From contig JAFYSL010000024.1 in assembly GCA_017559355.1 (NCBI GenBank), positions 507 to 64,506 of the forward strand: a DNA stretch of 64,000 bases. Reading direction: 5' to 3'. This document shows positions 17,657-27,113 of the stretch, in pieces. The notes below the pieces were generated by a model. That model saw only the letters and a program-made list of their open reading frames with translations, was not told where the DNA came from and searched no databases. Numbering within the stretch: position 1 is the first letter of the stretch; every line of letters starts with the position of its first letter. The stretch comes from Muribaculaceae bacterium. Lineage in GTDB: Bacteria > Bacteroidota > Bacteroidia > Bacteroidales > Muribaculaceae. Position numbers and translations under genes: made by a program.

Positions 17657-20600
17657 TTATCCACATGGAATAATCACATTGTGGATATTATCAATATACT
17701 TTCCTAGTGGTATCATATATGGAGTGAATAACACCAACTTCTCATCAAATGGTGCCTCATTTACCACAATTTCCTTTGTTATATCACCATTCTCACACAC
17801 ATACTGCACAATGGTATTTAAGAAGTCCTCTTGCTCTGAATTTAGAGCGTTATCAGATAGGAACTCACTAAACTTATTCAATGCTTCTCCCCTATCGACA
17901 CCTATCAATGAACGGATAAATGCCGCTACATTACCACCAAAGAGCATATTTTGAGTATATTTGGCATAATCATCCTTGCTGCCAAGTTCTGTCCATAGAA
18001 TACGTTCCAACTCTTCTATATCCTCAACCGACAACTGCTCAATGTTGTAAATCTTCTTCAATACAGGTAAGTTGCGATTATTTGCGAGGAAGTCAATGAT
18101 ACGCTGCTTGTAAGATACCTTCATTGTAATACCTTCTGTCTCTCCGTCATCAGTAATTACATCTTCAATATCTACAACAAACCACTTACCTTTTTCGCCT
18201 TTGAGGAATTGCATCAACTCTCTAAGGTCTTTACGCACCTTCTCTAACCATTGCAAAGACAAATTCTCCCACGCAACAACCGACAACACTTCTTTCAAGG
18301 TTGCCATCTTAGCCTGTACTTGTGGTAGTGTTGCTTTCTTCTCAACGAGTAGTGTTGCAATATTTTGTACCTGTAATATCTTCTTGTCTGCTTTTACCTC
18401 ATCATTTACACATGCAAGTTCAATGTTTAATATCAACGCATCAAACATCTTAGCAGCAGGTTCCATCGTGTTTTTAGGCAACAATGGAGCAATATCATTC
18501 TTCAAGGTATGTACATCTACCTCTGACAATGACAACCAATTATCTCCCTTTTTGAAATGACTTACTTCCTCCCACTTTGAGCGTACTGAGATATGACTAT
18601 CTGAGAGTGCCATTACCTGTTCTTTTAGTATGCTCTTCAACTCATCGTGAAATGAACGACAATATTCATCTTCTTGATATTTCTGATGCTGCAAATGGAA
18701 TGCTACATCTGCTCTCAATCCAAATATACGCTCTGTAAGAGATATTGTTGATGTTGCTGCTGTACCCTCAGGATTCTTTTCAAAATACTCAAAATTACGG
18801 CACCAATCAAATATGTAAAAGCACTCTTTATTCTTGCCATTGCCAAAAATATCCTCCGACAATCGTGTGCCTCTACCTATCATCTGCATAAACTTGATTT
18901 TGCTCTTCACAATCTTGAAGAAAACAAGATTCAACACATCAGGCACATCAATACCTGTATCAAGCATATCTACCGACACAGCAATCTGTGGATTATTGTC
19001 TCTAACCTCAAACTTATCAATCAAGTCCTGAGAGTAGGTAACATAATTGTCTATCAGAGCGCAAAATTCTGACCCATATTCAGGGTAGAGTTTATGGAAA
19101 CGCTCCACTATCAACTCTGCGTGTCGATGGTTGTATGCAAATATGATACTCTTACCTATACGCTCACCATACTGTACCTTGAGACCATTCTCCATCAAAT
19201 CTTGCAGCACAGCATCAATGGTTGCTTCGTTGAATATATAACTGAATATCTCATTGTTGTTAATATCTCGCACGAATTGGTTTCCGTATGCAACCTCAGG
19301 TTCGGCAGCAATCTGACTATAAGTATCAAGTTCTTTCATTGCCATCTCATACTCCCAAACTGCCTCCATCTGCTTCTTCTCTTCGTCTGAGAGGTTATTG
19401 TACTTGATACCCTCTTTGAGAATCATTGAACCACGCTTAAATCCTCGATAGTTCACCAAATAACCCTCACTTACTGCATCCTCTAACTCATAGGCATAGT
19501 TAGGAACACCCTGTTCCATCTCAAAGATGTCGTATGTACTCTTCTCTACCTCGTTTCTTGGCGTTGCGGTCAATCCAACAAGCATTGCATCGAAGTAATT
19601 GAAAATTGCGCCATACTTACCAAAGACTGAACGGTGTGCCTCATCAATGATTATCAGGTCAAATCGTCCCACTGAGAATGGTTTATCCTCTGTGTCAATG
19701 TAGTTAATCATCGTTTGATAAGTCGAGAATGTGATGCGAGCGTTGAGGTCTTTCTCGCCACTATCACTCAACACACTTGTTGTGGTCGAAGGCAACAACT
19801 TCACAAAATTCTTGTGTGCTTGATTTACAAGTGAAATGCGGTCGGCAAGGAACAATACATTCTTTACCCAACCATTGCGCATCAACACATCTACGAGTGA
19901 TATTGATACTCGTGTCTTTCCTGTACCCGTTGCCATCACAAGCAATCCCTTGCGATGTTTATTGTTGAGGTGTTCACACACTGCTTTGATTGCCATCTTC
20001 TGATATGCTCGGTCGGTGATATGGTCTTTGACAGAGAAGTCTGAAATATCCTTTCTACTTCTCTGCTGAATCATCAATTCCAAGTCATTTGCAGTGTGGA
20101 ATCCATATAATCTTCTTGGGGGATAACCCAATCCATCTATGATGTAGGTTTCAAATCCGTTAGTGTAGTATATCACAGGGCGTACACCATACTGTTGCTC
20201 CAAGCAATCGGCATACAGTTCGGCCTGATGCTTACCCTTGATAGGTGATGCAGATGTACGCTTTGCCTCTACCACAGCAAGAGGTTTACCATTACCTCCA
20301 AACAACACATAATCCACATAACCCACTTCGTGAGCATTAGGCATACCTTTTACCTCAACCTCAATACACGCTTTGAGTGGTTCCACTGCACCCTCTGTGG
20401 GGTTGATGTTCCATCCTGCCTCCTTCAACATTAGGTCGATATACATCGTGCGTGTCTCTGCTTCTGAAATGTCACAAGCAATCTCCACCACAGGTTCAGT
20501 AGTATTTAGAATCTTTGTATCTACCTCCTTCAGTGCCTTGTCGGTTGGCAATGTATCCACCTTTGGAGGTACTATTACTGATTTCTGAACAAAATTGGGG

Positions 20601-21010
20601 ATTAAGGTTTTGTCAAATGGTTTTACATCTTCAACTACACGCAATTTGACGAGAATTGCACCCACCACATTGTAGATATTCAGTAGTGAGAAGAATGCTT
20701 CCTTCTTGGATACATTGGCACCATGAGCACCATTATTACCCACTTTGCGCACATAGTGAACTGCCATCATCACCTTATCATCACCGATGAAATCTCGAAA
20801 TGGGTCGCCATCCACCAATTCAAAAAGTGATGTACGCTCCTTTATCTCAATACGCTTCATCTTGTATATCTCTCTAACGATATACTCCAATGCTCTACGA
20901 CCATTGAACGCAGATATTTCAGGATCGCACACCTGATTCTCCTCTGCAGCAGCACAGAATCGGTGCAAGGTGCTAAGTCCCAAATCCTTTATGTAGTCAA
21001 AGTTTCGCAT
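17657..21010 (-). CDS. hsdR: type I restriction endonuclease subunit R with an extra N-terminal DUF4145-like domain and an EcoEI-R-like C-terminus
   Basis: 1117 aa. PD-(D/E)xK region GYVDYVLF...AVVEAKR. Walker A LVMATGTGKT, DEAH box LIIIDEAHRS and motif VI MIGRGTR. About 125 N-terminal residues precede the nuclease domain. Confidence 0.9.
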   Translation of the reverse strand: MRNFDYIKDLGLSTLHRFCAAAEENQVCDPEISAFNGRRALEYIVREIYKMKRIEIKERTSLFELVDGDPFRDFIGDDKVMMAVHYVRKVGNNGAHGANVSKKEAFFSLLNIYNVVGAILVKLRVVEDVKPFDKTLIPNFVQKSVIVPPKVDTLPTDKALKEVDTKILNTTEPVVEIACDISEAETRTMYIDLMLKEAGWNINPTEGAVEPLKACIEVEVKGMPNAHEVGYVDYVLFGGNGKPLAVVEAKRTSASPIKGKHQAELYADCLEQQYGVRPVIYYTNGFETYIIDGLGYPPRRLYGFHTANDLELMIQQRSRKDISDFSVKDHITDRAYQKMAIKAVCEHLNNKHRKGLLVMATGTGKTRVSISLVDVLMRNGWVKNVLFLADRISLVNQAHKNFVKLLPSTTTSVLSDSGEKDLNARITFSTYQTMINYIDTEDKPFSVGRFDLIIIDEAHRSVFGKYGAIFNYFDAMLVGLTATPRNEVEKSTYDIFEMEQGVPNYAYELEDAVSEGYLVNYRGFKRGSMILKEGIKYNNLSDEEKKQMEAVWEYEMAMKELDTYSQIAAEPEVAYGNQFVRDINNNEIFSYIFNEATIDAVLQDLMENGLKVQYGERIGKSIIFAYNHRHAELIVERFHKLYPEYGSEFCALIDNYVTYSQDLIDKFEVRDNNPQIAVSVDMLDTGIDVPDVLNLVFFKIVKSKIKFMQMIGRGTRLSEDIFGNGKNKECFYIFDWCRNFEYFEKNPEGTAATSTISLTERIFGLRADVAFHLQHQKYQEDEYCRSFHDELKSILKEQVMALSDSHISVRSKWEEVSHFKKGDNWLSLSEVDVHTLKNDIAPLLPKNTMEPAAKMFDALILNIELACVNDEVKADKKILQVQNIATLLVEKKATLPQVQAKMATLKEVLSVVAWENLSLQWLEKVRKDLRELMQFLKGEKGKWFVVDIEDVITDDGETEGITMKVSYKQRIIDFLANNRNLPVLKKIYNIEQLSVEDIEELERILWTELGSKDDYAKYTQNMLFGGNVAAFIRSLIGVDRGEALNKFSEFLSDNALNSEQEDFLNTIVQYVCENGDITKEIVVNEAPFDEKLVLFTPYMIPLGKYIDNIHNVIIPCG

Positions 21011-22179
21011 TATTTTTTAATGGGATTATTTTGTTTTATTTTATTAGACAAATTCATTCGTCCTGCAACACTTGCTAATGCACTCATTTCTTGCATTCTT
21101 CGTTGTACCTCGCTAAATCCACCTAATTTATCAATAGATTGCCGAAATTCGTCTAACTGAGGAAATCTCGTATTTCCAAAGGTAGAATATGTTTCGGTTA
21201 ATTTATCTTGTATGCAATCCCAATCTATAGGATAATATAAATTTCTTATTGTTTCTTCAGAAAATATGGTTCTTATAGAATTATATTCGTCCCAATCAGA
21301 ATCAGAAGTCTTAACCTTTGAGATTTCATTAAGCGTTTTCTGACTTACTTTCAATTCCTTATTGCGTTTTGCATAATCCAAGAACCGACCACTATCATAT
21401 ATCAAAATACTTTGTCCTGTATTATCTGAGAACTCTTTTATTAACTCCTTTCGTGGAGAGTGTTTGCCTTCTTTCTTATCCCACCAATCGAGTTTATGGT
21501 CGTCTGTTATAAAGATTACACTTTTCGCCTGCTCTTTACAATGGAGAATTGTTTGTTTCCAAACTATCAAATCTCCATACAAACCTCTTTTCCCATTCTC
21601 TTTCTTATTCTTTTCATCACAATATCCTGGTGGTATTTTATTGGCATATCGTTTTTCACCTTCTTTGTATAATGCTTCCAAATCTTTTTCATCAAAATCA
21701 TTTCCCACACGTCCATCAAGTAGATTTGTAACAGATTGTAAAATTTTATCATCACTTAAATAATCAGGATGCTCTCTCCCTTGCTTCTCTAATGATTTTG
21801 CTATTGATTCTGCACATCTTTTCACCTTCTTCTTTATATCTTTAATACTGATATATGGATGGCGAGCATATTCACCCTCCAAAGAGCTAATAGCTCCTAC
21901 CAAATCTTTTGATAGTTTTTCTGCCAATACACTATACGCTTTGGCATTTTTACGCAGAATCTCTTCTCTGCGCCTATGAAACTCCAATCCCACCTGATAT
22001 GGAATCCACAAACGCTCTTTGTAGAATTTTATGACCTTAATAAATTCTTCACGAGTATCATCGTTATAACGATACAAGTTCAATAATACATTTGTATCAA
22101 ACACAATCAATGAATTATCCCATATCTCATTGATGCGCTCTTCTGTTAATTCGTAGTATTCCGCAAATAGTTTCTTCAT
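21010..22179 (-). CDS. PIN-like domain protein embedded in the type I R-M operon
   Basis: 389 aa. N-terminal LIVFDTNVLLNLYRY (PIN beta1 Asp) and later VIFITDDHKLDWW acidic cluster. The C-terminal ~150 aa has no motif I recognise. Its stop overlaps the hsdR start (TAATG). Confidence 0.6.
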   Translation of the reverse strand: MKKLFAEYYELTEERINEIWDNSLIVFDTNVLLNLYRYNDDTREEFIKVIKFYKERLWIPYQVGLEFHRRREEILRKNAKAYSVLAEKLSKDLVGAISSLEGEYARHPYISIKDIKKKVKRCAESIAKSLEKQGREHPDYLSDDKILQSVTNLLDGRVGNDFDEKDLEALYKEGEKRYANKIPPGYCDEKNKKENGKRGLYGDLIVWKQTILHCKEQAKSVIFITDDHKLDWWDKKEGKHSPRKELIKEFSDNTGQSILIYDSGRFLDYAKRNKELKVSQKTLNEISKVKTSDSDWDEYNSIRTIFSEETIRNLYYPIDWDCIQDKLTETYSTFGNTRFPQLDEFRQSIDKLGGFSEVQRRMQEMSALASVAGRMNLSNKIKQNNPIKK

Positions 22180-22188
22180 ATTGTTGTA

Positions 22189-23319
22189 TTAGTTAAAATA
22201 ATAATCCATTCGTGAGTTAAACAACTCTTCTATTTCCTTGATTGATTGCTTAATCAACTCTTTTTGTTTCTCTATCGCTTCAATCTTATCTGCAAATTCT
22301 TGTTGAAGAGCGAGTGGTGGAAATATTAGCGACATTTCATTGATTATATTAACCGATATGCCAGGTTGTGCGACTCCTTGTGCAAATCGATTAAGATTAT
22401 TGAATCTCAAAGTATAATACATCCACATAGGATTAATATCATCGATAATATTATTGCATACAACAGCGTGTTCTGTTGCATAGAATTCTCCTTGTGCGAA
22501 CACTACATTTCCACATAATGCACCTTGTCTGCCAATAATGGGAAAAGACCCGTTGTGAGATTTTTTATTTATATACCCTCGTATCCCATTACCCCCATAG
22601 CATGGAAATAGTCCTTCATTAGGGATTCCTGAAAGTTCGTTTGCTTTTATTGATTTTCCTGCTTTTAGCACTGCTGCATTTTTTAAGAGAACTTCCTCCC
22701 ATCCCTTTTCATTCGTAATAGGGTCGCCAAACATAGTGTAGAAGATTGACTCAGCAAGGGCATCAAGTTCTTTCAACTGCTGTTTCTTCTTCTCAATCAC
22801 CCCACTCAAACAATCCAACTCCGCCACAATCTTTTCTTGCTCAGCAAGTGGAGGGATAGGCACATCAATAGTTTTAAGATCTGTAACTGATATGCTTGAC
22901 TGATTTACTGCATCCTTTCGTCTATTGGCAATTTGACTTTTGAATTTGTGTGTTTGTGAATAGTGGTAAAAGTAAAATGGACTAATAATTTCGGAAGTCA
23001 CTTTTAGCCTTAATAAATTCATTCCGTGAATAATTGTCTCATCCCCATCTTTTTCGTACACTACTACACGACCAATATATGCTTTACTATTGATGTGTGA
23101 TAACAATAAATCACCTGATTCCATCACATAAGATTGGTAGTTGTCTATGGTCTCAATATCAGCATATCCAAGCCTATCTCTATTAAAAACGCCACCAGAC
23201 AATGTTTCTATACGAGTAATAGGGATTCCTCCTGCACCTCGCTCCTGCTTGATGTTGGCACCATTCTTAATGTATTCAAAACACTCCCCGAGTTTCTTTA
23301 TTTCCCAACCTTGTTTCAT
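22189..23319 (-). CDS. hsdS: type I restriction-modification specificity subunit S
   Basis: 376 aa. Two target-recognition halves separated by the conserved PPLAEQEKIVAELD...LKELD helix and ending PPLALQQEFADKIEAIEKQKE. Confidence 0.85.
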   Translation of the reverse strand: MKQGWEIKKLGECFEYIKNGANIKQERGAGGIPITRIETLSGGVFNRDRLGYADIETIDNYQSYVMESGDLLLSHINSKAYIGRVVVYEKDGDETIIHGMNLLRLKVTSEIISPFYFYHYSQTHKFKSQIANRRKDAVNQSSISVTDLKTIDVPIPPLAEQEKIVAELDCLSGVIEKKKQQLKELDALAESIFYTMFGDPITNEKGWEEVLLKNAAVLKAGKSIKANELSGIPNEGLFPCYGGNGIRGYINKKSHNGSFPIIGRQGALCGNVVFAQGEFYATEHAVVCNNIIDDINPMWMYYTLRFNNLNRFAQGVAQPGISVNIINEMSLIFPPLALQQEFADKIEAIEKQKELIKQSIKEIEELFNSRMDYYFN

Positions 23320-23323
23320 TTCT

Positions 23324-23989
23324 TTAATTTAGATTACAGCGTTCTGCAATTTTGTCTACAAATTTCCGCTTCATAAGTTTTGTTTTACGCTTCATAAAAC
23401 TATTTATTTGTTCGGTTGCTAATGGTTTGTAAAAATCATTTGGAATGATAGATAATAGTGTCTCCATTTGTTTTTTCTCTCCATTCAGCAAACATTCTAC
23501 AGAAAGCGAATCATCAATGGTTACATCTTGATTGTTTTTCTTTTCTATAGATACTATCATGTAGAATAATTTGAGTGTTGTCACCATATATATCAATACA
23601 TTCCTATACTCTTCAAGTGTTGATTTTTCAGATGGGTATTTAAGCTCTAAATCTGCATAATTCTTATTAAACTCATCGAAGAGTTCCGATATTTCTAAGA
23701 TTTCCTTTGAAAAAGGTTCTTTTATAGAATTGCGTTCTGGGATATAATATGTAAACACTCTGAATATAAACAAATCTATTTGAAAATCAACATCCTTTAT
23801 TAGTTTATATAATTTACTATTCACATCATACTCTTGAACCTTTGTTTGGCGTTTTTGTAGTTTTATTTGTACAACCGCAATTACTATTACCGCAACAGTA
23901 CTTATTGCAGACAAAATCACTCCCCACCAAGCAGGGTCAGCTATAAACTCAATAAATTTGTTTAGTAGTATTTCCGTTTCGTAGTCCAT
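23324..23989 (-). CDS. hypothetical single-pass membrane protein embedded in the type I R-M operon
   Basis: 221 aa. One hydrophobic helix WWGVILSAISTVAVIVIAVVQI followed by KLQKRQTK. The rest is charged and helical with no recognisable motif. It ends 4 nt before the hsdS start and is very AT-rich. Confidence 0.5.
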   Translation of the reverse strand: MDYETEILLNKFIEFIADPAWWGVILSAISTVAVIVIAVVQIKLQKRQTKVQEYDVNSKLYKLIKDVDFQIDLFIFRVFTYYIPERNSIKEPFSKEILEISELFDEFNKNYADLELKYPSEKSTLEEYRNVLIYMVTTLKLFYMIVSIEKKNNQDVTIDDSLSVECLLNGEKKQMETLLSIIPNDFYKPLATEQINSFMKRKTKLMKRKFVDKIAERCNLN

Positions 23990-24060
23990 TTTTTACTCTA
24001 TCTGTCCTTCGTGCTCAAAAATTGCGTTTTTTTGAGCATATCTATTAGTCTTCCATTATT

Positions 24061-24088
24061 AATAATCACATAACAGTCACATAAGATT
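24061..24088. repeat. 28-bp direct repeat, copy 1 (AATAATCACATAACAGTCACATAAGATT)
   Basis: Identical to 24150-24177. Contains two TCACATAA units 11 bp apart. Confidence 0.9.
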
Positions 24089-24149
24089 TACATTGCAAAT
24101 GTTCTAATAATCAAAGAAATGTGTATTTTACCTTGCTCCAAATTTGGAT

Positions 24150-24177
24150 AATAATCACATAACAGTCACATAAGATT
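24150..24177. repeat. 28-bp direct repeat, copy 2
   Basis: Identical to 24061-24088. It abuts and overlaps the stop codon of the AlbA_2-like gene. Confidence 0.9.
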
Positions 24178-25621
24178 ATGCCCAATATGGAAGATATCGT
24201 TTATATTTCTTAGATTTATTGTCGGTATCCACCTCTTTAATAACTCCTGCCAATAAAGCGTCTTTAATTAATCTTGATGCCATAGAGTAGTTTTTATCAT
24301 CTATATTAAATCGTTCACGTAATGACTGATTCGACATAAAATCATTTGACACCCATTTTAAGCATGCATGTTGATAAACTGCTCTAATTTTATCATTTCT
24401 ATCCATTTCACGCAGTTGTTTATATGCATATAATATAACCTTAGTATGAACGTCAGAAGAGACGAAATAAGGAGCTGGCAATTGATAAAATTCACATTGA
24501 AAAATAACCTTATCTATTCCACTGCCTTTCTCTTCACATACCTTCATCCTTCGCATTAACGATGCTAACTTCTCATTTCGAGAGCGATATTCATCAATAA
24601 AACGAATAGGATCAATAAGAGGTTTACCAGGGTTGGAAAACTCAATTCTATCGTTATAAATTTCTATCAATGTAGCAGTCCCCGATACGCTAAAATCTTG
24701 ATGAATAATACTATTGGCTACTAATTCACGAATTGCCAATTGAGGATACATTCTAACCTCTTCACGAAGAGAATCACCGATTACTTCATTTCTTGGAAGT
24801 AAATCATTAATAAATTTAACTAATGAAGTAAAACCAACAGCATAACCCTGTGTAAATTCTTCATCTAAAATAGTTTTAATCTTATTGTTTCCAGAATATT
24901 GAACAACTCTAACTATTTTACGTTCCAATGATTTGAAATCGTGAAGATTTTTTGCAAATAAAATTCCTCCAAGATTAGTAATGGAATAACTTCCCTCTTT
25001 TTTTATTACAAGCCCATCTATTATCAATCTCTCAATTACCCCATCTTGATTTGTAGGATATGGTAATCCCAACATGTCAAAATAAGACTGGGTGTCCAAT
25101 AATCTTATTATATCTGCCGAACTACAACCATCAATAGCTGTATATGTCTCAAAGTTATATTTAATATTATTCCAAATTTTTCTCTCTTTACTTGGGAAGT
25201 CGCTTAGTTTTCTCGTAATGCTACCAACTCGTATATATGGAACCTTCTTATAGTCTACAGGTTCATTTTCTGCTGCTGGAATTTCAAACAAAGAAATATC
25301 TTTTCCATCACACTTAAATTCATAAATACGAAAGTCAATGCGTGGAGTTAAGTTTTGAATTAACCAATTTTCTAACTCATTATTCCCAATTTTCTTTTGT
25401 GATGGTTTAAATGTAGTGCCTAATATTTCATGCGATTCATCATCTACCCCAAAAATAAGATATCCATAAGCCCTATTATCGATACAAGCAGAATTGGCAA
25501 TTGCCGAAATCCGTTCTCCGATTTCATCTTCAGTGTGAAAATTATGTTTAAATTCAACCCACTCATTTTCTTTGGGTAAGGCAACTAATTGTTTTAGTAA
25601 AACACACAATCTTTGTTCCAT
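24176..25621 (-). CDS. AlbA_2/Schlafen-like DNA-binding domain plus HATPase_c_4-like domain protein (COG2865-type putative regulator/ATPase)
   Basis: 481 aa. ENEWVEFKHNF near the N-terminus (AlbA_2 E-x-E-F-K signature) and AIRELVANSIIHQDF further on (RecG-C/HATPase_c_4-like). Its start is 1 nt after the hsdM stop. Confidence 0.65.
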   Translation of the reverse strand: MEQRLCVLLKQLVALPKENEWVEFKHNFHTEDEIGERISAIANSACIDNRAYGYLIFGVDDESHEILGTTFKPSQKKIGNNELENWLIQNLTPRIDFRIYEFKCDGKDISLFEIPAAENEPVDYKKVPYIRVGSITRKLSDFPSKERKIWNNIKYNFETYTAIDGCSSADIIRLLDTQSYFDMLGLPYPTNQDGVIERLIIDGLVIKKEGSYSITNLGGILFAKNLHDFKSLERKIVRVVQYSGNNKIKTILDEEFTQGYAVGFTSLVKFINDLLPRNEVIGDSLREEVRMYPQLAIRELVANSIIHQDFSVSGTATLIEIYNDRIEFSNPGKPLIDPIRFIDEYRSRNEKLASLMRRMKVCEEKGSGIDKVIFQCEFYQLPAPYFVSSDVHTKVILYAYKQLREMDRNDKIRAVYQHACLKWVSNDFMSNQSLRERFNIDDKNYSMASRLIKDALLAGVIKEVDTDNKSKKYKRYLPYWA

Positions 25622-25622
25622 A

Positions 25623-27113
25623 TTACAACATTTTCTTCAATTCATTTAATGCACTTTGGATTTCATTTTCCAATTGTTCGATGCGTTCCATTATCACCTC
25701 AGGGGCATCATATGTTACCACTTCACGCTCTACCTCCTTATACTTGTTGATTGAGAGGTCATATCCCTTCTCACGAATTTCATCGACAGGCACGAGGAAT
25801 GATTGCTCCTTACGGGTGCGTTCCTCTTCTGCTGCGAGGTTATGGAAACGAGCAACAATGTCGGGAATATCACTTTCAGCAACCTCATTGCGCTTTTGGT
25901 CAAGAGAATAACCATCTGCTTTCATATCGTAGAACCACACCTTGTCGGTTCCTCCTGCATTGGTCTTGGTGAAAATCAAGATTGCGGTACTCACGCCCGA
26001 ATATGGTTGGAACACTCCCGATGACATTGAGATAACTGCTTCCAAACGATGGTTGTCAATCAATTCCTTACGGATAGACTTGTGTCCTGTACTATTCCCA
26101 AACAACACCCCATCAGGAACGATACTTGCACATCTACCACCTGTCTGCAACATACGCACAAACAGAGCAAGGAACAACAACTCAGTTTTCTTGGTCTTGG
26201 TGATTGCAAGCAAAGACTTGCTCACTGCCTCATTGTCAAGACTACCTGTAAATGGAGGATTTGCAAGACAAAGAGAATATCGGTTCTCATCGGTGTTGTC
26301 GGTCGAAAGACTATCACGATAGGCAATATCAGGGTTATCTACTCCGTGAAGCATCAGGTTCATTGCACCAATACGCAACATTGTGGCATCGGTATCAAAA
26401 CCATGAAGCAAACCATTCTTGTAGTGGTCGGAATTCTCTTTCTTGAGAAGTTCACTCTTATAGTGTTGTTGGATATACTTTGCACTCTCCACGATAAAAC
26501 CCGCTGAACCCATAGCAGGGTCGCAGATGGTGTCCTTCAATGTTGGTTTCATCAGTTCTACCATCATACGGATAATGTGTCTTGGAGTACGGAACTGACC
26601 ATTATTACCCGATGCTGCCATCTTACCCAACACATACTCATATACATCACCCATAGTATCACGATTGTTCATATCGAGGTCATTGATGCCCTCAACAATC
26701 TTTGTCAATGTGCGTGGTGCCTGAATCAAGAACGAAGCATTTGCCATAAAACGACTATATGCACTCTCTTTACCTTCACCAAGATTCTTGATAAAGACAA
26801 ACACATCCTTGCTGATAGTGCGGTACATCGCCTCTGCCTCCATATTGCGAAACACACTCCAACGAAGTTGCTCATAAGGCACATCTTTGTCAGTGTCGGG
26901 GTTATGCCACATACCTTCCTTGAAAGTAGGGTCTTTCAATGCAGTGCCCCAAGCGTTAGCACTTGCTTCTTTGGTGCGCTGAGCATCATCGAGCATCTTC
27001 ATAAAGAACAGATAGGTCATCTGTTCAAGGATAGTTATAGAATTGGTAATACCTCCTGTCCAAAAGGTGTCCCATATAGAGTCAATACGATTCTTGATTT
27101 CGCCTGTTATCAT
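25623..27113 (-). CDS. hsdM: type I restriction-modification DNA methyltransferase subunit M (N6-adenine)
   Basis: 496 aa. HsdM N-domain, AdoMet motif DPAMGSAGF and catalytic LANPPFTGS. Confidence 0.9.
   Translation of the reverse strand: MITGEIKNRIDSIWDTFWTGGITNSITILEQMTYLFFMKMLDDAQRTKEASANAWGTALKDPTFKEGMWHNPDTDKDVPYEQLRWSVFRNMEAEAMYRTISKDVFVFIKNLGEGKESAYSRFMANASFLIQAPRTLTKIVEGINDLDMNNRDTMGDVYEYVLGKMAASGNNGQFRTPRHIIRMMVELMKPTLKDTICDPAMGSAGFIVESAKYIQQHYKSELLKKENSDHYKNGLLHGFDTDATMLRIGAMNLMLHGVDNPDIAYRDSLSTDNTDENRYSLCLANPPFTGSLDNEAVSKSLLAITKTKKTELLFLALFVRMLQTGGRCASIVPDGVLFGNSTGHKSIRKELIDNHRLEAVISMSSGVFQPYSGVSTAILIFTKTNAGGTDKVWFYDMKADGYSLDQKRNEVAESDIPDIVARFHNLAAEEERTRKEQSFLVPVDEIREKGYDLSINKYKEVEREVVTYDAPEVIMERIEQLENEIQSALNELKKML

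What the first reader, a model, noticed from the sequence alone, without database searches (positions are those of the whole stretch)
17657..27113. Type I R-M operon interrupted by three non-R-M genes: candidate composite defence island
All six genes are on the minus strand, in this order:
- hsdM (25623-27113)
- AlbA_2/HATPase_c_4-like gene (24176-25621), starting 1 nt after the hsdM stop
- a 186-bp gap
- single-TM orphan (23324-23989)
- hsdS (22189-23319), 4 nt after the orphan
- PIN-like gene (21010-22179), 9 nt after hsdS
- hsdR (17657-21010), overlapping the PIN-like stop as TAATG

The packing implies co-transcription and translational coupling of the extra genes with the restriction subunits.

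Hand GC counts on single 60-nt lines suggest a mosaic:
- about 28% in the PIN-like gene
- about 30% in the TM orphan
- about 33% in the AlbA_2-like gene
- about 43% in hsdR
- about 50% in the flanking lpxB

The locus is wedged between housekeeping genes: the lpxB stop is 3 nt from the hsdR stop, and the LMW-PTP gene is divergent on the other side.

Type I loci are known to host restriction-linked ORFs, for example the prr/PrrC locus of E. coli and the rlo genes of Campylobacter. I do not recognise this particular trio as a described system.
Basis: partly seen in the sequence, partly recalled or inferred. Interest (0 to 1): 0.8.

Follow-up and report, generated by a model that had tools for sequence, protein, structure and literature searches.

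The report
Restriction operon carrying three defence-like passengers
A gut Bacteroidales bacterium has a DNA-restriction (type I R-M) operon with three extra, probably anti-virus genes slotted between its subunits; this kind of embedding is already known, and is the norm in this operon family, but two of the three passenger families are still uncharacterised.

Summary
Six minus-strand genes lie exactly where stated, separated by 1, 186, 4, 9 and -1 nt. They are hsdM, a Schlafen/GHKL-ATPase protein ("Schlatpase"), a single-pass membrane protein, hsdS, a PIN_8/DUF4935 nuclease and hsdR (EcoAI/EcoEI-like).

The embedded block has 33% GC, against 41-44% for hsdM, hsdR and the flanks.

Embedding is normal in this family. 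Of 61 complete related Bacteroidales loci, 44 (72%) carry extra genes in the same two slots. These include Fic, RloA/B, YhcG nuclease, AIPR and a GmrSD pair.

The same order, Schlatpase then membrane protein then hsdS then PIN_8 then hsdR, recurs in several diverged loci. However, each passenger also occurs alone:
- Schlatpase in other defence islands
- PIN_8 on plasmids and 51 viral contigs
- the membrane protein in an integrase-bearing element

All three are under purifying selection and keep their catalytic motifs.

Most likely these are three autonomous, co-transcribed accessory defence cassettes in a recombination hot spot, not one three-part system. This is a new member of a known kind ("embedded" defence genes such as PrrC, Rlo and TgvAB).

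A conserved ~110-nt TTATGTGA repeat element travels with this Schlatpase clade and is unexplained.

The parts
25623..27113 (-). hsdM, type I methyltransferase subunit (496 aa)
   Evidence: Pfam N6_Mtase 1.5e-67 and HsdM_N. PADLOC MTase_I 8.8e-181. It is 61-94% identical to HsdM in 80 Bacteroidales-dominated loci.
24176..25621 (-). Schlafen (AlbA_2) + GHKL ATPase (HATPase_c_4) + C-terminal winged-helix protein, a 'Schlatpase' or pSlfn-HisKinase-HTH type (481 aa)
   Evidence: Pfam. Slfn motif E18-x4-E23-x-K25 and GHKL motif E299xxxN303 are present. Close relatives (60-86% id) are either embedded after hsdM (L108, L109) or solo in defence islands (L110, L111, L113). dN is 0.07 with dS saturated. 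The HTH is inferred from HTH_24 hits in homologues and from the literature.
24060..24177 (-). Conserved non-coding element: two copies of TTATGTGACTGTTATGTGA, 89 nt apart, inside the 186-nt gap. The first copy abuts the Schlatpase stop codon.
   Evidence: Perfect 29-nt direct repeat; 0 matches expected by chance. The same paired motif follows every Schlatpase that is at least 69% identical, and also precedes one of them (L111). No Rfam hit and no covariation.
23324..23989 (-). Single-pass membrane protein (221 aa). It has an N-terminal TM helix (about aa 20-42, nt 23864-23932) and a variable all-helical cytoplasmic domain. It belongs to an unannotated family.
   Evidence: No Pfam, NCBIfam, PADLOC or PHROG hit. 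The family has 29 clusters at 90% identity and 224 at 50%. The AF2 model has pLDDT 85 and is all helical, with no significant PDB match. Homologues usually lie just upstream of hsdS in the same hsd family. dN/dS is 0.14. The TM sequence is conserved despite synonymous divergence.
22189..23319 (-). hsdS, specificity subunit with two target-recognition domains (376 aa)
   Evidence: Pfam Methylase_S 1.7e-36, two stretches. PADLOC Specificity_I 8.7e-56. It is only 25-60% identical in related loci, so it is the hypervariable subunit.
21010..22179 (-). PIN_8/DUF4935 PIN-like nuclease (389 aa). The conserved PIN core is aa 1-290. The C-terminal tail of about 100 aa is hypervariable (nt 21013-21303).
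   Evidence: Pfam PIN_8 7.4e-67. D28, E66, D203, D226 and D227 are invariant in 25 homologues, and the tail cannot be aligned. Homologues at 65-77% id sit between hsdS and hsdR in L096, L100, L102/103 and L008. Distant relatives are solo on plasmids and on 51 viral contigs. phrog_9788 3.5e-67. dN/dS is about 0.21.
17657..21010 (-). hsdR, restriction/translocase subunit (1117 aa), EcoAI/EcoEI-like. It has an N-terminal DUF4145 extension (aa 29-112, nt 20675-20926).
   Evidence: Pfam ResIII, HSDR_N, Helicase_C, EcoEI_R_C and DUF4145. NCBIfam restrict_EcoAI 2e-73, below the equivalog cut-off. PADLOC REase_I 1.3e-164.

Best explanation
The locus is an intact EcoAI/EcoEI-like type I restriction-modification operon of a Muribaculaceae bacterium.

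Its two internal junctions, hsdM-hsdS and hsdS-hsdR, act as recombination hot spots into which accessory genes are swapped. The conserved hsdM and hsdR genes serve as the frame.

In this copy three such cassettes are present and are probably transcribed with the hsd genes:
1. A prokaryotic Schlafen nuclease fused to a GHKL ATPase and an HTH. The predicted role is an ATP-switched tRNA/RNA-cleaving effector.
2. A membrane-anchored protein. Its TM helix is constrained and its cytoplasmic domain diversifies quickly. The predicted role is an infection sensor or membrane effector.
3. A PIN_8 nuclease with an intact acidic active site and a hypervariable C-terminal tail. The predicted role is a nuclease effector whose tail is the sensing or partner-binding part.

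Each cassette is an autonomous single-gene module that can work away from the R-M genes. Together they give a second, probably abortive-infection-type layer behind restriction.

What is shown: gene content, order, conservation, independence of the modules, purifying selection and intact motifs.

What is inferred: co-transcription, anti-phage function, and the individual biochemical activities.
For: Anatomy and domains.

Frame versus cassette. In L007 HsdM is 94% and HsdR 84% identical to the window's. The interior genes are 26% (Schlatpase), 40% (membrane protein) and 35% (HsdS) identical, and the PIN slot holds a different gene. Embedded block GC is 0.33 against 0.41-0.44 for the frame.

Hot spot. 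Of 61 complete loci of the family, 44 carry at least one embedded ORF of 100 aa or more. The M-S slot is filled in 26, the S-R slot in 32, both in 14. The contents are mostly families that recur in R-M and defence contexts: Fic/DOC (15), YhcG PD-(D/E)xK (8), AAA_21+RloB, AIPR, a GmrSD_N pair, T5orf172, a PLD nuclease and AAA_14/DUF4143.

Recurrent order. L096, L100, L102/103 and L008 carry an orphan-family gene, hsdS, PIN_8 and hsdR in that order. L096 and L100 also have a Schlatpase after hsdM.

Autonomy:
- PIN_8 stays intact in a decayed locus that has only hsdS and hsdR remnants (L098).
- PIN_8 relatives are solo on plasmids and on 51 viral contigs with no hsd gene within 6 kb.
- Schlatpase is solo in a TIR/caspase island and in an MmeI/AbiE/RloAB island.
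- The membrane protein occurs as a tandem pair in an integrase-bearing element without hsd.

Functionality: dN/dS is 0.14-0.21. The PIN acidic residues are invariant. The Slfn Ex4ExK and GHKL motifs are present. The operon is intact in several independent metagenome samples.

Literature: embedding predicts defence (bioRxiv 10.1101/2024.01.29.577857; PMC11411939). Prokaryotic Schlafens defend against phage (PMC13056530).
Against: - No experiment exists for any of the three genes.
- The two Schlafen-HisKinase-type proteins tested in E. coli gave no protection in PMC13056530.
- PADLOC has no model for the PIN_8 protein or the membrane protein. The Schlatpase hits PDC-S50 only weakly, over the AlbA_2 domain.
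- The same gene order recurs despite deep divergence, and all five PIN_8-bearing hsd loci also carry the membrane-protein gene. Either fact could mean functional coupling rather than independent cassettes.
- No promoter or terminator could be assigned. The sigma-70 scan was at chance level (44 found, 40.5 expected), and no Bacteroides -7 motif was found in either intergenic region.
- No empty lpxB/LMW-PTP site was found, so acquisition of the operon itself is not shown.
Confidence: 0.6

Rival explanations
1. R-M guardian model, working like PrrC. One or more embedded proteins, most plausibly the PIN_8 nuclease whose stop codon overlaps the hsdR start, is held latent by contact with the type I enzyme. 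It is released when a phage anti-restriction protein disables HsdR, HsdM or HsdS, and then causes RNA cleavage and abortive infection. The membrane protein and the Schlatpase would be further parts of the same coupled system.
For: - PIN_8 sits in the hsdS-hsdR slot in five diverged hsd loci: window, L008, L096, L100 and L102.
- The TAATG overlap (window) and the ATGA overlap in L096 suggest coupled translation with hsdR.
- All five loci also carry the membrane-protein gene next to hsdS.
- The hypervariable PIN_8 tail could be a partner-binding surface that tracks variable R-M subunits.
- PrrC in EcoprrI is a precedent for this logic (PMC12707154).
Against: - PIN_8 stays intact, and is common (about 24 contigs), in a locus where hsdM is absent and only short hsdS and hsdR remnants are left.
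- The wider PIN_8 family is solo on plasmids and prophages.
- The PIN-hsdR overlap is not conserved. There is a 28-nt gap in L102, and two small ORFs intervene in L100.
- The membrane-protein gene is common in the closest hsdM clade whether or not PIN_8 is present, so the 5/5 co-occurrence is weak evidence.
- There is no sequence similarity to PrrC or RloC.
Confidence: 0.15
2. Regulatory or housekeeping accessory model. The Schlatpase-HTH acts mainly as a DNA-binding regulator. It binds the four TTATGTGA octamers just downstream of its own gene and so controls expression of the distal half of the operon (membrane protein, hsdS, PIN_8, hsdR). This would be comparable to a controller protein that delays restriction after transfer. 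The membrane protein would tether or localise the R-M complex. Under this model the extra genes tune R-M rather than form separate defences.
For: - The ~110-nt element with two pairs of octamers is found with every Schlatpase that is at least 69% identical, whatever the neighbouring genes. In L111 it also lies about 20 nt upstream of the Schlatpase start, a typical position for an autoregulatory operator.
- The octamers within a pair are 11 nt apart and the pairs are 88-89 nt apart, which is helically phased.
- More than 90% of Schlatpase proteins end in an HTH, and the SLFN-GHKL module tetramerises (bioRxiv 10.64898/2026.05.29.728809).
- The 186-nt gap is the only sizeable intergenic space in the operon.
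Against: - The Slfn catalytic motif and the ATPase motifs are intact, which a pure regulator would not need.
- The same Schlatpase clade with the same element occurs with no hsd genes at all (L110, L111), so it is not an R-M-specific controller.
- Loci with distant Schlatpases have no gap and no element (L007, L100).
- Binding has not been tested.
- The element could equally be a promoter or a cassette boundary.
Confidence: 0.15
3. Inert hitchhikers. The three genes are selfish or decaying insertions that merely sit inside a tolerant operon and contribute no function.
For: - The low GC of the block suggests foreign origin.
- Some related loci carry a DDE transposase or fragmentary genes in the same slots (L091, L108).
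Against: - All three are full length and under purifying selection (dN/dS 0.14-0.21; Schlatpase dN 0.07 with saturated dS).
- Catalytic residues are conserved.
- No transposase, integrase or terminal inverted repeats lie within or next to the operon.
- The operon is intact in independent samples.
Confidence: 0.05

Closest known systems
PrrC anticodon nuclease embedded in the EcoprrI type IC R-M locus of E. coli
   Same: An RNA-directed effector gene sits between hsd genes of a type I operon. The logic is a second-line, abortive defence behind restriction (PMC12707154).
   Different: There is no homology: PrrC is an ABC-ATPase plus anticodon-nuclease, whereas this locus has a PIN_8 nuclease and a Schlafen/GHKL protein. 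PrrC is almost always embedded in type I loci (bioRxiv 10.1101/2024.01.29.577857). PIN_8 and Schlatpase relatives are often solo. Latency imposed by the R-M enzyme is not shown here.
Campylobacter jejuni rlo genes (RloA-H) within type I hsd loci
   Same: Variable non-R-M ORFs occupy the hsdM-hsdS and hsdS-hsdR junctions of otherwise conserved type I loci. Homologues of RloA/RloB (AAA_21 + RloB) occupy the same slot in related loci here (L017). The comparison with Miller et al. 2005 rests on citations in PMC11411939 and on my own knowledge.
   Different: The host phylum differs, and so does the R-M family (EcoAI/EcoEI-like). The three genes in this window are not Rlo families.
TgvAB, a GmrSD-like type IV system embedded in the Vibrio cholerae VPI-2 type I R-M cluster (PMC11411939)
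   Same: A tested example showing that genes embedded between hsd genes form an independent defence that complements the surrounding R-M. A pair of GmrSD_N proteins occupies the hsdS-hsdR slot in a related locus (L077).
   Different: The window's passengers are not DUF262/GmrSD proteins, and nothing has been tested here.
'Guilt-by-embedding' candidates (HEC/PDC) of Payne et al. 2024, included in PADLOC v2
   Same: The principle is the same: genes nested in type I R-M, BREX, DISARM or Hma systems are predicted defences. The HsdR N-terminus hits PDC-M16A, and the AlbA_2 domain weakly hits PDC-S50.
   Different: The PIN_8 protein and the membrane protein match no PADLOC model at E<=0.01. They are therefore not among the 145 published candidates as represented in that library.
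Prokaryotic Schlafen defence proteins (pSlfn, PMC13056530) and the 'Schlatpase' SLFN+GHKL supradomain (bioRxiv 10.64898/2026.05.29.728809)
   Same: The domain architecture is the same: AlbA_2 with an Ex4(E/D)xK motif, a GHKL ATPase and a C-terminal HTH. It is found in defence neighbourhoods. Exchange of this module with type I R-M operons was noted in that preprint.
   Different: Protection has been shown for DUF262-Slfn, Ig-like-Slfn and SLFN-pAgo, but not for the stand-alone HisKinase(-HTH) architecture present here. The associated TTATGTGA element did not come up in the keyword look-ups I made in these two papers; I did not search them for the motif.

Membership tests
Type I restriction-modification system (EcoAI/EcoEI-like, 'type IB-like') | HsdM with HsdM_N and an N6-adenine methyltransferase domain | tested here: met
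   Pfam N6_Mtase 1.5e-67 and HsdM_N 3.2e-12. PADLOC MTase_I 8.8e-181.
Type I restriction-modification system (EcoAI/EcoEI-like, 'type IB-like') | HsdS with two target-recognition domains | tested here: met
   Methylase_S 1.7e-36, two matched stretches. PADLOC Specificity_I.
Type I restriction-modification system (EcoAI/EcoEI-like, 'type IB-like') | HsdR with a nuclease N-domain, an SF2 translocase and a family-specific C-terminus | tested here: met
   HSDR_N, ResIII, Helicase_C and EcoEI_R_C. NCBIfam restrict_EcoAI 2e-73 scores 248 bits, below the 550-bit equivalog cut-off, so this is a relative and not an equivalog.
Type I restriction-modification system (EcoAI/EcoEI-like, 'type IB-like') | Sequence-specific m6A methylation and ATP-dependent restriction of unmodified DNA | not testable with these tools
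   Needs SMRT or nanopore methylome data and transformation or plaque assays.
PrrC/RloC-type R-M-linked anticodon nuclease | ABC-ATPase N-domain plus anticodon-nuclease C-domain homologous to PrrC | tested here: not met
   None of the three embedded proteins gives a PrrC or RloC model hit in Pfam, NCBIfam or PADLOC.
PrrC/RloC-type R-M-linked anticodon nuclease | Gene embedded within a type I hsd operon | tested here: met
   Positions and spacing.
PrrC/RloC-type R-M-linked anticodon nuclease | Kept latent by the R-M enzyme and activated by anti-restriction | not testable with these tools
   Needs biochemistry or genetics. Indirect evidence against obligate dependence: PIN_8 is intact in the decayed locus L098.
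Prokaryotic Schlafen (pSlfn) / Schlatpase | SLFN_AlbA_2 domain with the Ex4(E/D)xK motif | tested here: met
   PF04326 9.6e-24. E18-NEWV-E23-F-K25 is present, and so is E118-x4-D123-x-K125.
Prokaryotic Schlafen (pSlfn) / Schlatpase | Fused GHKL-type ATPase (PF13749) with a Bergerat-fold motif | tested here: met
   HATPase_c_4 2.2e-19. ELVAN motif at residues 299-303.
Prokaryotic Schlafen (pSlfn) / Schlatpase | C-terminal HTH | tested here: inconclusive
   The window protein gives no Pfam HTH hit. Homologues in the same slot carry HTH_24. The helix-rich C-terminal ~80 aa resembles a winged helix by eye only.
Prokaryotic Schlafen (pSlfn) / Schlatpase | Anti-phage activity or tRNA cleavage | not testable with these tools
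   In PMC13056530 only the DUF262-Slfn and Ig-like-Slfn fusions gave protection; the constructs of the HisKinase architecture that were tested did not.
PIN_8 / DUF4935 PIN-like nucleases | Match to PF18476 above the gathering score, with the four or five conserved acidic residues of the PIN fold | tested here: met
   226 bits against a cut-off of 26.1. D28, E66, D203, D226 and D227 are invariant in 25 homologues.
PIN_8 / DUF4935 PIN-like nucleases | Nuclease activity and substrate | not testable with these tools
   The family has no characterised member (PMC5499597) and no solved structure. The Foldseek search returned nothing significant.
VapBC-type toxin-antitoxin pair | Small PIN toxin (about 130 aa) preceded by a small antitoxin gene | tested here: not met
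   The protein has 389 aa and a long helical insert. The upstream gene is hsdS, 9 nt away, and no small ORF is present.
Phase-variable hsdS inverton/shufflon | Extra or partial hsdS copies, long inverted repeats and a nearby recombinase | tested here: not met
   There is a single hsdS. The inverted repeats are at most 30 nt and 70-94% complementary, i.e. at chance level. No recombinase lies in the flanks.
PADLOC v2 phage-defence candidates (PDC) | Match to a PDC or HEC profile | tested here: inconclusive
   PIN_8 and the membrane protein give no hit at E<=0.01. The Schlatpase gives 4.9e-8 to PDC-S50, over the AlbA_2 domain only. The HsdR N-terminus gives 6.1e-14 to PDC-M16A.

The most novel reading that the evidence does not exclude
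The membrane protein, the PIN_8 nuclease and possibly the Schlatpase could be functionally wired to the type I enzyme rather than merely lodging in it. In this reading they form a Bacteroidales 'R-M guardian' set. A membrane-anchored sensor encoded next to hsdS, and a PIN RNase translationally coupled to hsdR, would detect failure or inhibition of restriction and trigger abortive infection. The Schlatpase-HTH would control the distal operon through the TTATGTGA operator. This would be a non-homologous analogue of PrrC/EcoprrI with a membrane component.
Probability: 0.12. Interest if true: 0.75.

Novelty: new member of a known kind. Interest (0 to 1): 0.45.

Why it matters
Type I R-M operons of gut and rumen Bacteroidales turn out to be a rich, slot-structured hot spot for accessory immunity genes.

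This window supplies two uncharacterised, well-conserved candidates with clear test handles:
- a PIN_8/DUF4935 nuclease subfamily that lives between hsdS and hsdR
- a 224-cluster family of single-pass membrane proteins that sits next to hsdS

It also supplies a stand-alone Schlafen-GHKL-HTH protein together with a candidate DNA operator. For that architecture, defence has not yet been demonstrated.

If these are confirmed, they would add new single-gene defences for an abundant and poorly studied phylum. They would also show how R-M frames spread such genes by homologous exchange. The concept itself is not new.

Tried and rejected
- Structure route for the membrane protein. The AF2 model is good (pLDDT 85), but Foldseek against PDB gave only generic helical bundles (best E 0.23), so no fold assignment was possible.
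- Structure route for PIN_8. The model is moderate (pLDDT 72, tail below 50), Foldseek gave nothing significant, and a profile search of PDB sequences found nothing.
- Recombination explanation for the near-invariant TM segment of the membrane protein. Rejected, because only 45-75% of conserved codons are identical, so the protein sequence itself is under selection.
- RNA explanation for the TTATGTGA element. There is no Rfam hit. RNAalifold gave -8.8 kcal/mol with no compensatory pairs.
- A scan of viral contigs with the degenerate motif returned only scattered single matches and is uninformative.
- Promoters and terminators. The sigma-70-type scan was at chance level (44 found, 40.5 expected). 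No terminator lies in the gap. There is no exact Bacteroides TAnnTTTG motif in either intergenic region. Transcription units therefore remain unassigned.
- Empty-site test. Every contig with the identical LMW-PTP carries the same operon, so no lpxB/LMW-PTP junction lacking the operon was found.
- Orphan family on phages. None were found in IMG/VR.
- A shufflon or inverton reading of hsdS was rejected.
- A toxin-antitoxin reading of the PIN gene was rejected on size and context.
- Co-occurrence statistics for PIN_8 with the membrane protein were not pushed further. The loci are few and related, and the membrane-protein gene is common in the nearest hsdM clade anyway.

Full report
1. OBSERVATION

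All six ORFs exist on the minus strand at exactly the stated coordinates. The junctions are as described:
- hsdM to Schlafen gene: TAA-T-ATG, 1 nt between
- Schlafen gene to the 221-aa ORF: a 186-nt gap
- 221-aa ORF to hsdS: 4 nt
- hsdS to the PIN gene: 9 nt
- PIN gene to hsdR: a TAATG stop/start overlap
- the lpxB stop lies 3 nt from the hsdR stop

Pfam, PADLOC and NCBIfam confirm each domain call:
- HsdM: N6_Mtase and HsdM_N
- HsdS: two Methylase_S stretches
- HsdR: HSDR_N, ResIII, Helicase_C and EcoEI_R_C, an EcoAI/EcoEI-like ('type IB-like') enzyme with an extra N-terminal DUF4145 domain
- Embedded gene 1: SLFN_AlbA_2 plus HATPase_c_4
- Embedded gene 3: PIN_8 (also matching PIN_12/DUF4935)
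- Embedded gene 2 (221 aa): no hit in any library

The compositional mosaic is real, but the hand counts were inaccurate. The embedded block has GC 0.33 (Schlatpase 0.322, membrane ORF 0.303, PIN_8 0.333, hsdS 0.369). By comparison hsdM is 0.435, hsdR 0.407, lpxB 0.434 (not about 0.50) and LMW-PTP 0.428.

The source is a Muribaculaceae metagenome-assembled genome. The flanks are housekeeping genes (hflX-like GTPase, lpxB, LMW-PTP, a GH20 hexosaminidase), and no integrase or transposase is present.

2. WHAT THE SURROUNDING FAMILY LOOKS LIKE

A scan of species-representative genomes with HsdM returned 80 loci at 61-94% identity. Almost all are Bacteroidales from gut and rumen.

Sixty-three of them hold both hsdM and hsdR, and 61 have a callable hsdS. 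Among those 61:
- 44 (72%) carry at least one extra ORF of 100 aa or more between hsdM and hsdR
- the hsdM-hsdS slot is filled in 26, the hsdS-hsdR slot in 32, both in 14, neither in 17
- only 3 loci carry three or more passengers, so this window is at the loaded end of a common pattern

Clustering and Pfam scans of the passengers show:
- Fic/DOC proteins (15)
- a four-helix 23S_rRNA_IVP-like family (9)
- YhcG/DUF1016 PD-(D/E)xK nucleases (8)
- AAA_21 plus RloB pairs
- AIPR
- a pair of GmrSD_N proteins, which resembles TgvAB
- T5orf172, a PLD nuclease, a NucS-like nuclease, AAA_14/DUF4143
- one DDE transposase and several unknowns

This is the picture described for Campylobacter rlo genes, for TgvAB in Vibrio cholerae (PMC11411939) and, more generally, by 'guilt-by-embedding' (bioRxiv 10.1101/2024.01.29.577857).

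The frame is far more conserved than the filling. In L007, HsdM is 94% and HsdR 84% identical to the window's. The Schlafen protein there is 26% identical, the membrane protein 40% and HsdS 35%, and the PIN slot holds an unrelated 232-aa gene.

3. THE THREE PASSENGERS

(a) Schlafen/GHKL protein

This is the most common prokaryotic Schlafen architecture. PMC13056530 calls it 'HisKinase(-HTH)'. bioRxiv 10.64898/2026.05.29.728809 calls the SLFN+GHKL unit 'Schlatpase' and noted exchange of the module with type I R-M operons.
- The Ex4ExK motif (E18, E23, K25) and a GHKL ExxxN motif are present.
- Close relatives (84-86% identical) are embedded after hsdM in L108 and L109, but solo in L110.
- A 69% relative sits alone in a TIR/caspase island. 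A 60% relative lies beside an MmeI-like enzyme, AbiE and RloAB.
- dN against the 86% relative is 0.07 with dS saturated.

(b) The 221-aa 'orphan'

It belongs to an unannotated family with 29 clusters at 90% identity and 224 at 50%.
- It has a short acidic N-terminus, one TM helix followed by a basic, glutamine-rich stretch, and an all-helical domain of about 170 aa. By the positive-inside rule the helical domain is cytoplasmic; this topology is inferred.
- The AF2 model has pLDDT 85. No PDB fold match was found.
- In many members the TM segment is nearly invariant while the rest is about 30% identical.
- Codon comparison shows many synonymous differences inside the conserved TM. The conservation is therefore selection on the protein and not recent gene conversion.
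- dN/dS against an 82% relative is 0.14.
- In other loci the gene usually lies 2-4 nt upstream of hsdS within the same hsd family: L001-3, L007, L010, L012, L017, L018, L096, L100 and L102.
- Sometimes another small ORF lies between (L028, L109). Sometimes it is in tandem with a paralogue. In L004-6 it sits in an integrase-bearing element with no hsd genes.
- No relative was found on viral contigs.

(c) PIN_8 protein

- The core of about 290 aa is highly conserved. D28, E66, D203, D226 and D227 are invariant. The C-terminal tail of about 100 aa cannot be aligned between homologues.
- Relatives at 65-77% identity occupy the hsdS-hsdR slot in L096, L100 and L102/103, and a 44% relative does so in L008.
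- In L098, which is seen on about 24 contigs, the gene is intact although hsdM is absent and only short hsdS and hsdR fragments remain.
- Distant relatives (24-40% identical) are solo genes on plasmids, near restriction, Abi and recombinase genes. They also occur on 51 IMG/VR contigs with no hsd gene within 6 kb. The family is phrog_9788.
- Matelska et al. (PMC5499597) list PIN_8 and DUF4935 as function unknown and describe DUF4935 genes as usually monocistronic.
- dN/dS is about 0.21.

4. IS THE TRIO ONE SYSTEM?

The order hsdM, Schlatpase, membrane protein, hsdS, PIN_8, hsdR recurs in L096 and L100. It recurs without a full Schlatpase in L102/103 and L008. In these loci the components are only 26-35% identical (Schlatpase, membrane protein, HsdS) or 65-77% identical (PIN_8) to the window's. 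That is notable.

Three facts argue against an obligate unit:
- Each gene is found without the others and without hsd genes (section 3).
- The partner in the first slot is often Fic instead of Schlatpase (L017, L018, L028), and the partner in the last slot is often something else (L001, L007, L017, L109).
- The membrane-protein gene is common throughout the hsdM clade closest to the window, so its presence in all five PIN_8 loci is weak evidence.

The simplest account is slot-specific cassette exchange by homologous recombination, using the conserved hsdM 3' end, the hsdS ends and the hsdR 5' end. The short conserved hsdS and hsdR fragments that still flank PIN_8 in L098 are consistent with this.

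5. HOW IT MOST LIKELY WORKS

Shown:
- an intact type I R-M
- three intact, selected, tightly packed passengers with intact catalytic motifs
- each passenger is modular and associated with defence neighbourhoods

Inferred:
- The genes are co-transcribed with the hsd genes. Spacing supports this, but no promoter or terminator could be assigned.
- Each acts as an independent second-line defence. The Schlatpase would be an ATP-switched tRNA/RNA nuclease. PIN_8 would be a nuclease whose variable tail senses or binds a trigger. The membrane protein would be a sensor or effector in which the constrained TM helix is the effector or oligomerising part and the fast-evolving cytoplasmic domain is the sensing part.

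Confidence in this overall reading is about 0.6.

Rivals:
- a PrrC-like guardian coupled to the R-M enzyme (0.15)
- a mainly regulatory or localising role for the Schlatpase-HTH and the membrane protein (0.15)
- inert hitchhikers (0.05)

6. UNEXPECTED ELEMENT

The 186-nt gap holds a perfect 29-nt direct repeat, 89 nt apart. Each copy contains two TTATGTGA octamers 11 nt apart.
- The same ~110-nt element follows the stop codon of every Schlatpase that is at least 69% identical to this one, whether embedded (L108, L109) or solo (L110, L111).
- It follows a 51-aa Schlatpase remnant in L004-6.
- In L111 it also lies about 20 nt upstream of the Schlatpase start.
- It is absent from loci whose Schlatpase is 60% identical or less.
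- It is not an Rfam family and shows no RNA covariation.

It therefore travels with this Schlatpase clade. A plausible but untested reading is an operator for the protein's C-terminal HTH. The alternatives are a promoter or a cassette boundary.

7. COMPARISON, NOVELTY AND SCORE

The closest knowns are PrrC/EcoprrI, the Campylobacter rlo loci, TgvAB, the PADLOC embedded candidates and the prokaryotic Schlafen defence proteins.
- The locus works like these in being layered immunity nested in an R-M.
- It is not a member of the PrrC, GmrSD or VapBC families, because those features were tested and not met.
- The PIN_8 subfamily and the membrane-protein family have no PADLOC model and no functional literature.

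The finding is best filed as a new member of a known kind. Interest is moderate (0.45). It gives good, testable candidates and a neat hot-spot picture for Bacteroidales, but no new principle.

Noticed in passing
window 24060-24177 (minus strand); also L004 7184-7290, L108 8449-8467, L109 3610-3628, L110 8449-8555, L111 6873-6979 and 8452-8569: A conserved ~110-nt non-coding element with two pairs of TTATGTGA octamers (11 nt apart within a pair, 88-89 nt between pairs). It accompanies every Schlatpase gene at least 69% identical to the window's, whatever the neighbouring genes, and flanks one of them on both sides. It is a candidate operator, promoter or cassette boundary, and is not an Rfam RNA.
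   Followed up: partly
window 20675-20926 (HsdR aa 29-112): HsdR carries an N-terminal DUF4145 domain ahead of the nuclease domain. The same region hits PADLOC candidate PDC-M16A (6.1e-14). Related HsdR proteins (L108, L109) show it too. Its role in a type I R subunit is unknown.
   Followed up: no
L001 2510-2734, L002, L016, L018, L019, L102, L103, L108 5280-5504, L109, L110 6745-6969: A highly conserved 74-aa ORF (85-100% identical) lies directly upstream of hsdM in 10 related loci, and directly upstream of a solo Schlatpase in L110. A divergent WYL_2 gene is often next to it. The ORF is absent from the window. It could be a regulator of the operon family.
   Followed up: partly
L098/L099 5856-9392: A decayed type I locus. 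A 43-aa hsdS 3' remnant is followed by an intact PIN_8 gene, a 24-aa hsdR 5' remnant, an AAA_21+RloB pair and a 27-aa hsdR 3' remnant. It looks as if RloAB had replaced the body of hsdR. The locus is seen on about 24 contigs.
   Followed up: partly
L004 7320-9600 (also L005, L006, L009, L013): Tandem paralogues of the membrane-protein family (220 and 219 aa, then 83- and 217-aa ORFs) lie in an integrase-bearing element beside an MmeI-like type IIG enzyme. A Schlatpase 3' remnant precedes them and no hsd genes are present.
   Followed up: partly
L077 12734-17172: Two adjacent GmrSD_N (DUF262) proteins of 659 and 820 aa occupy the hsdS-hsdR slot of a related Bacteroidales type I locus. This layout is like that of the TgvAB system of Vibrio cholerae.
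   Followed up: no
window 21013-21303 (PIN_8 aa ~293-389) and alignment A3: The PIN_8 proteins share a near-invariant 290-aa core but have a C-terminal tail of about 100 aa that cannot be aligned even among 60-75% identical homologues. AF2 confidence for the tail is low (pLDDT below 50 to 65).
   Followed up: partly
L102 3640-4140, L096 3655-4059, L108 9428-9673: Further small ORFs in the hsdM-hsdS slot of related loci are predicted membrane or coiled-coil proteins. Examples are a 166-aa protein with a C-terminal TM and an 81-aa protein with an N-terminal TM. Small membrane proteins may be a recurrent feature of this slot.
   Followed up: no
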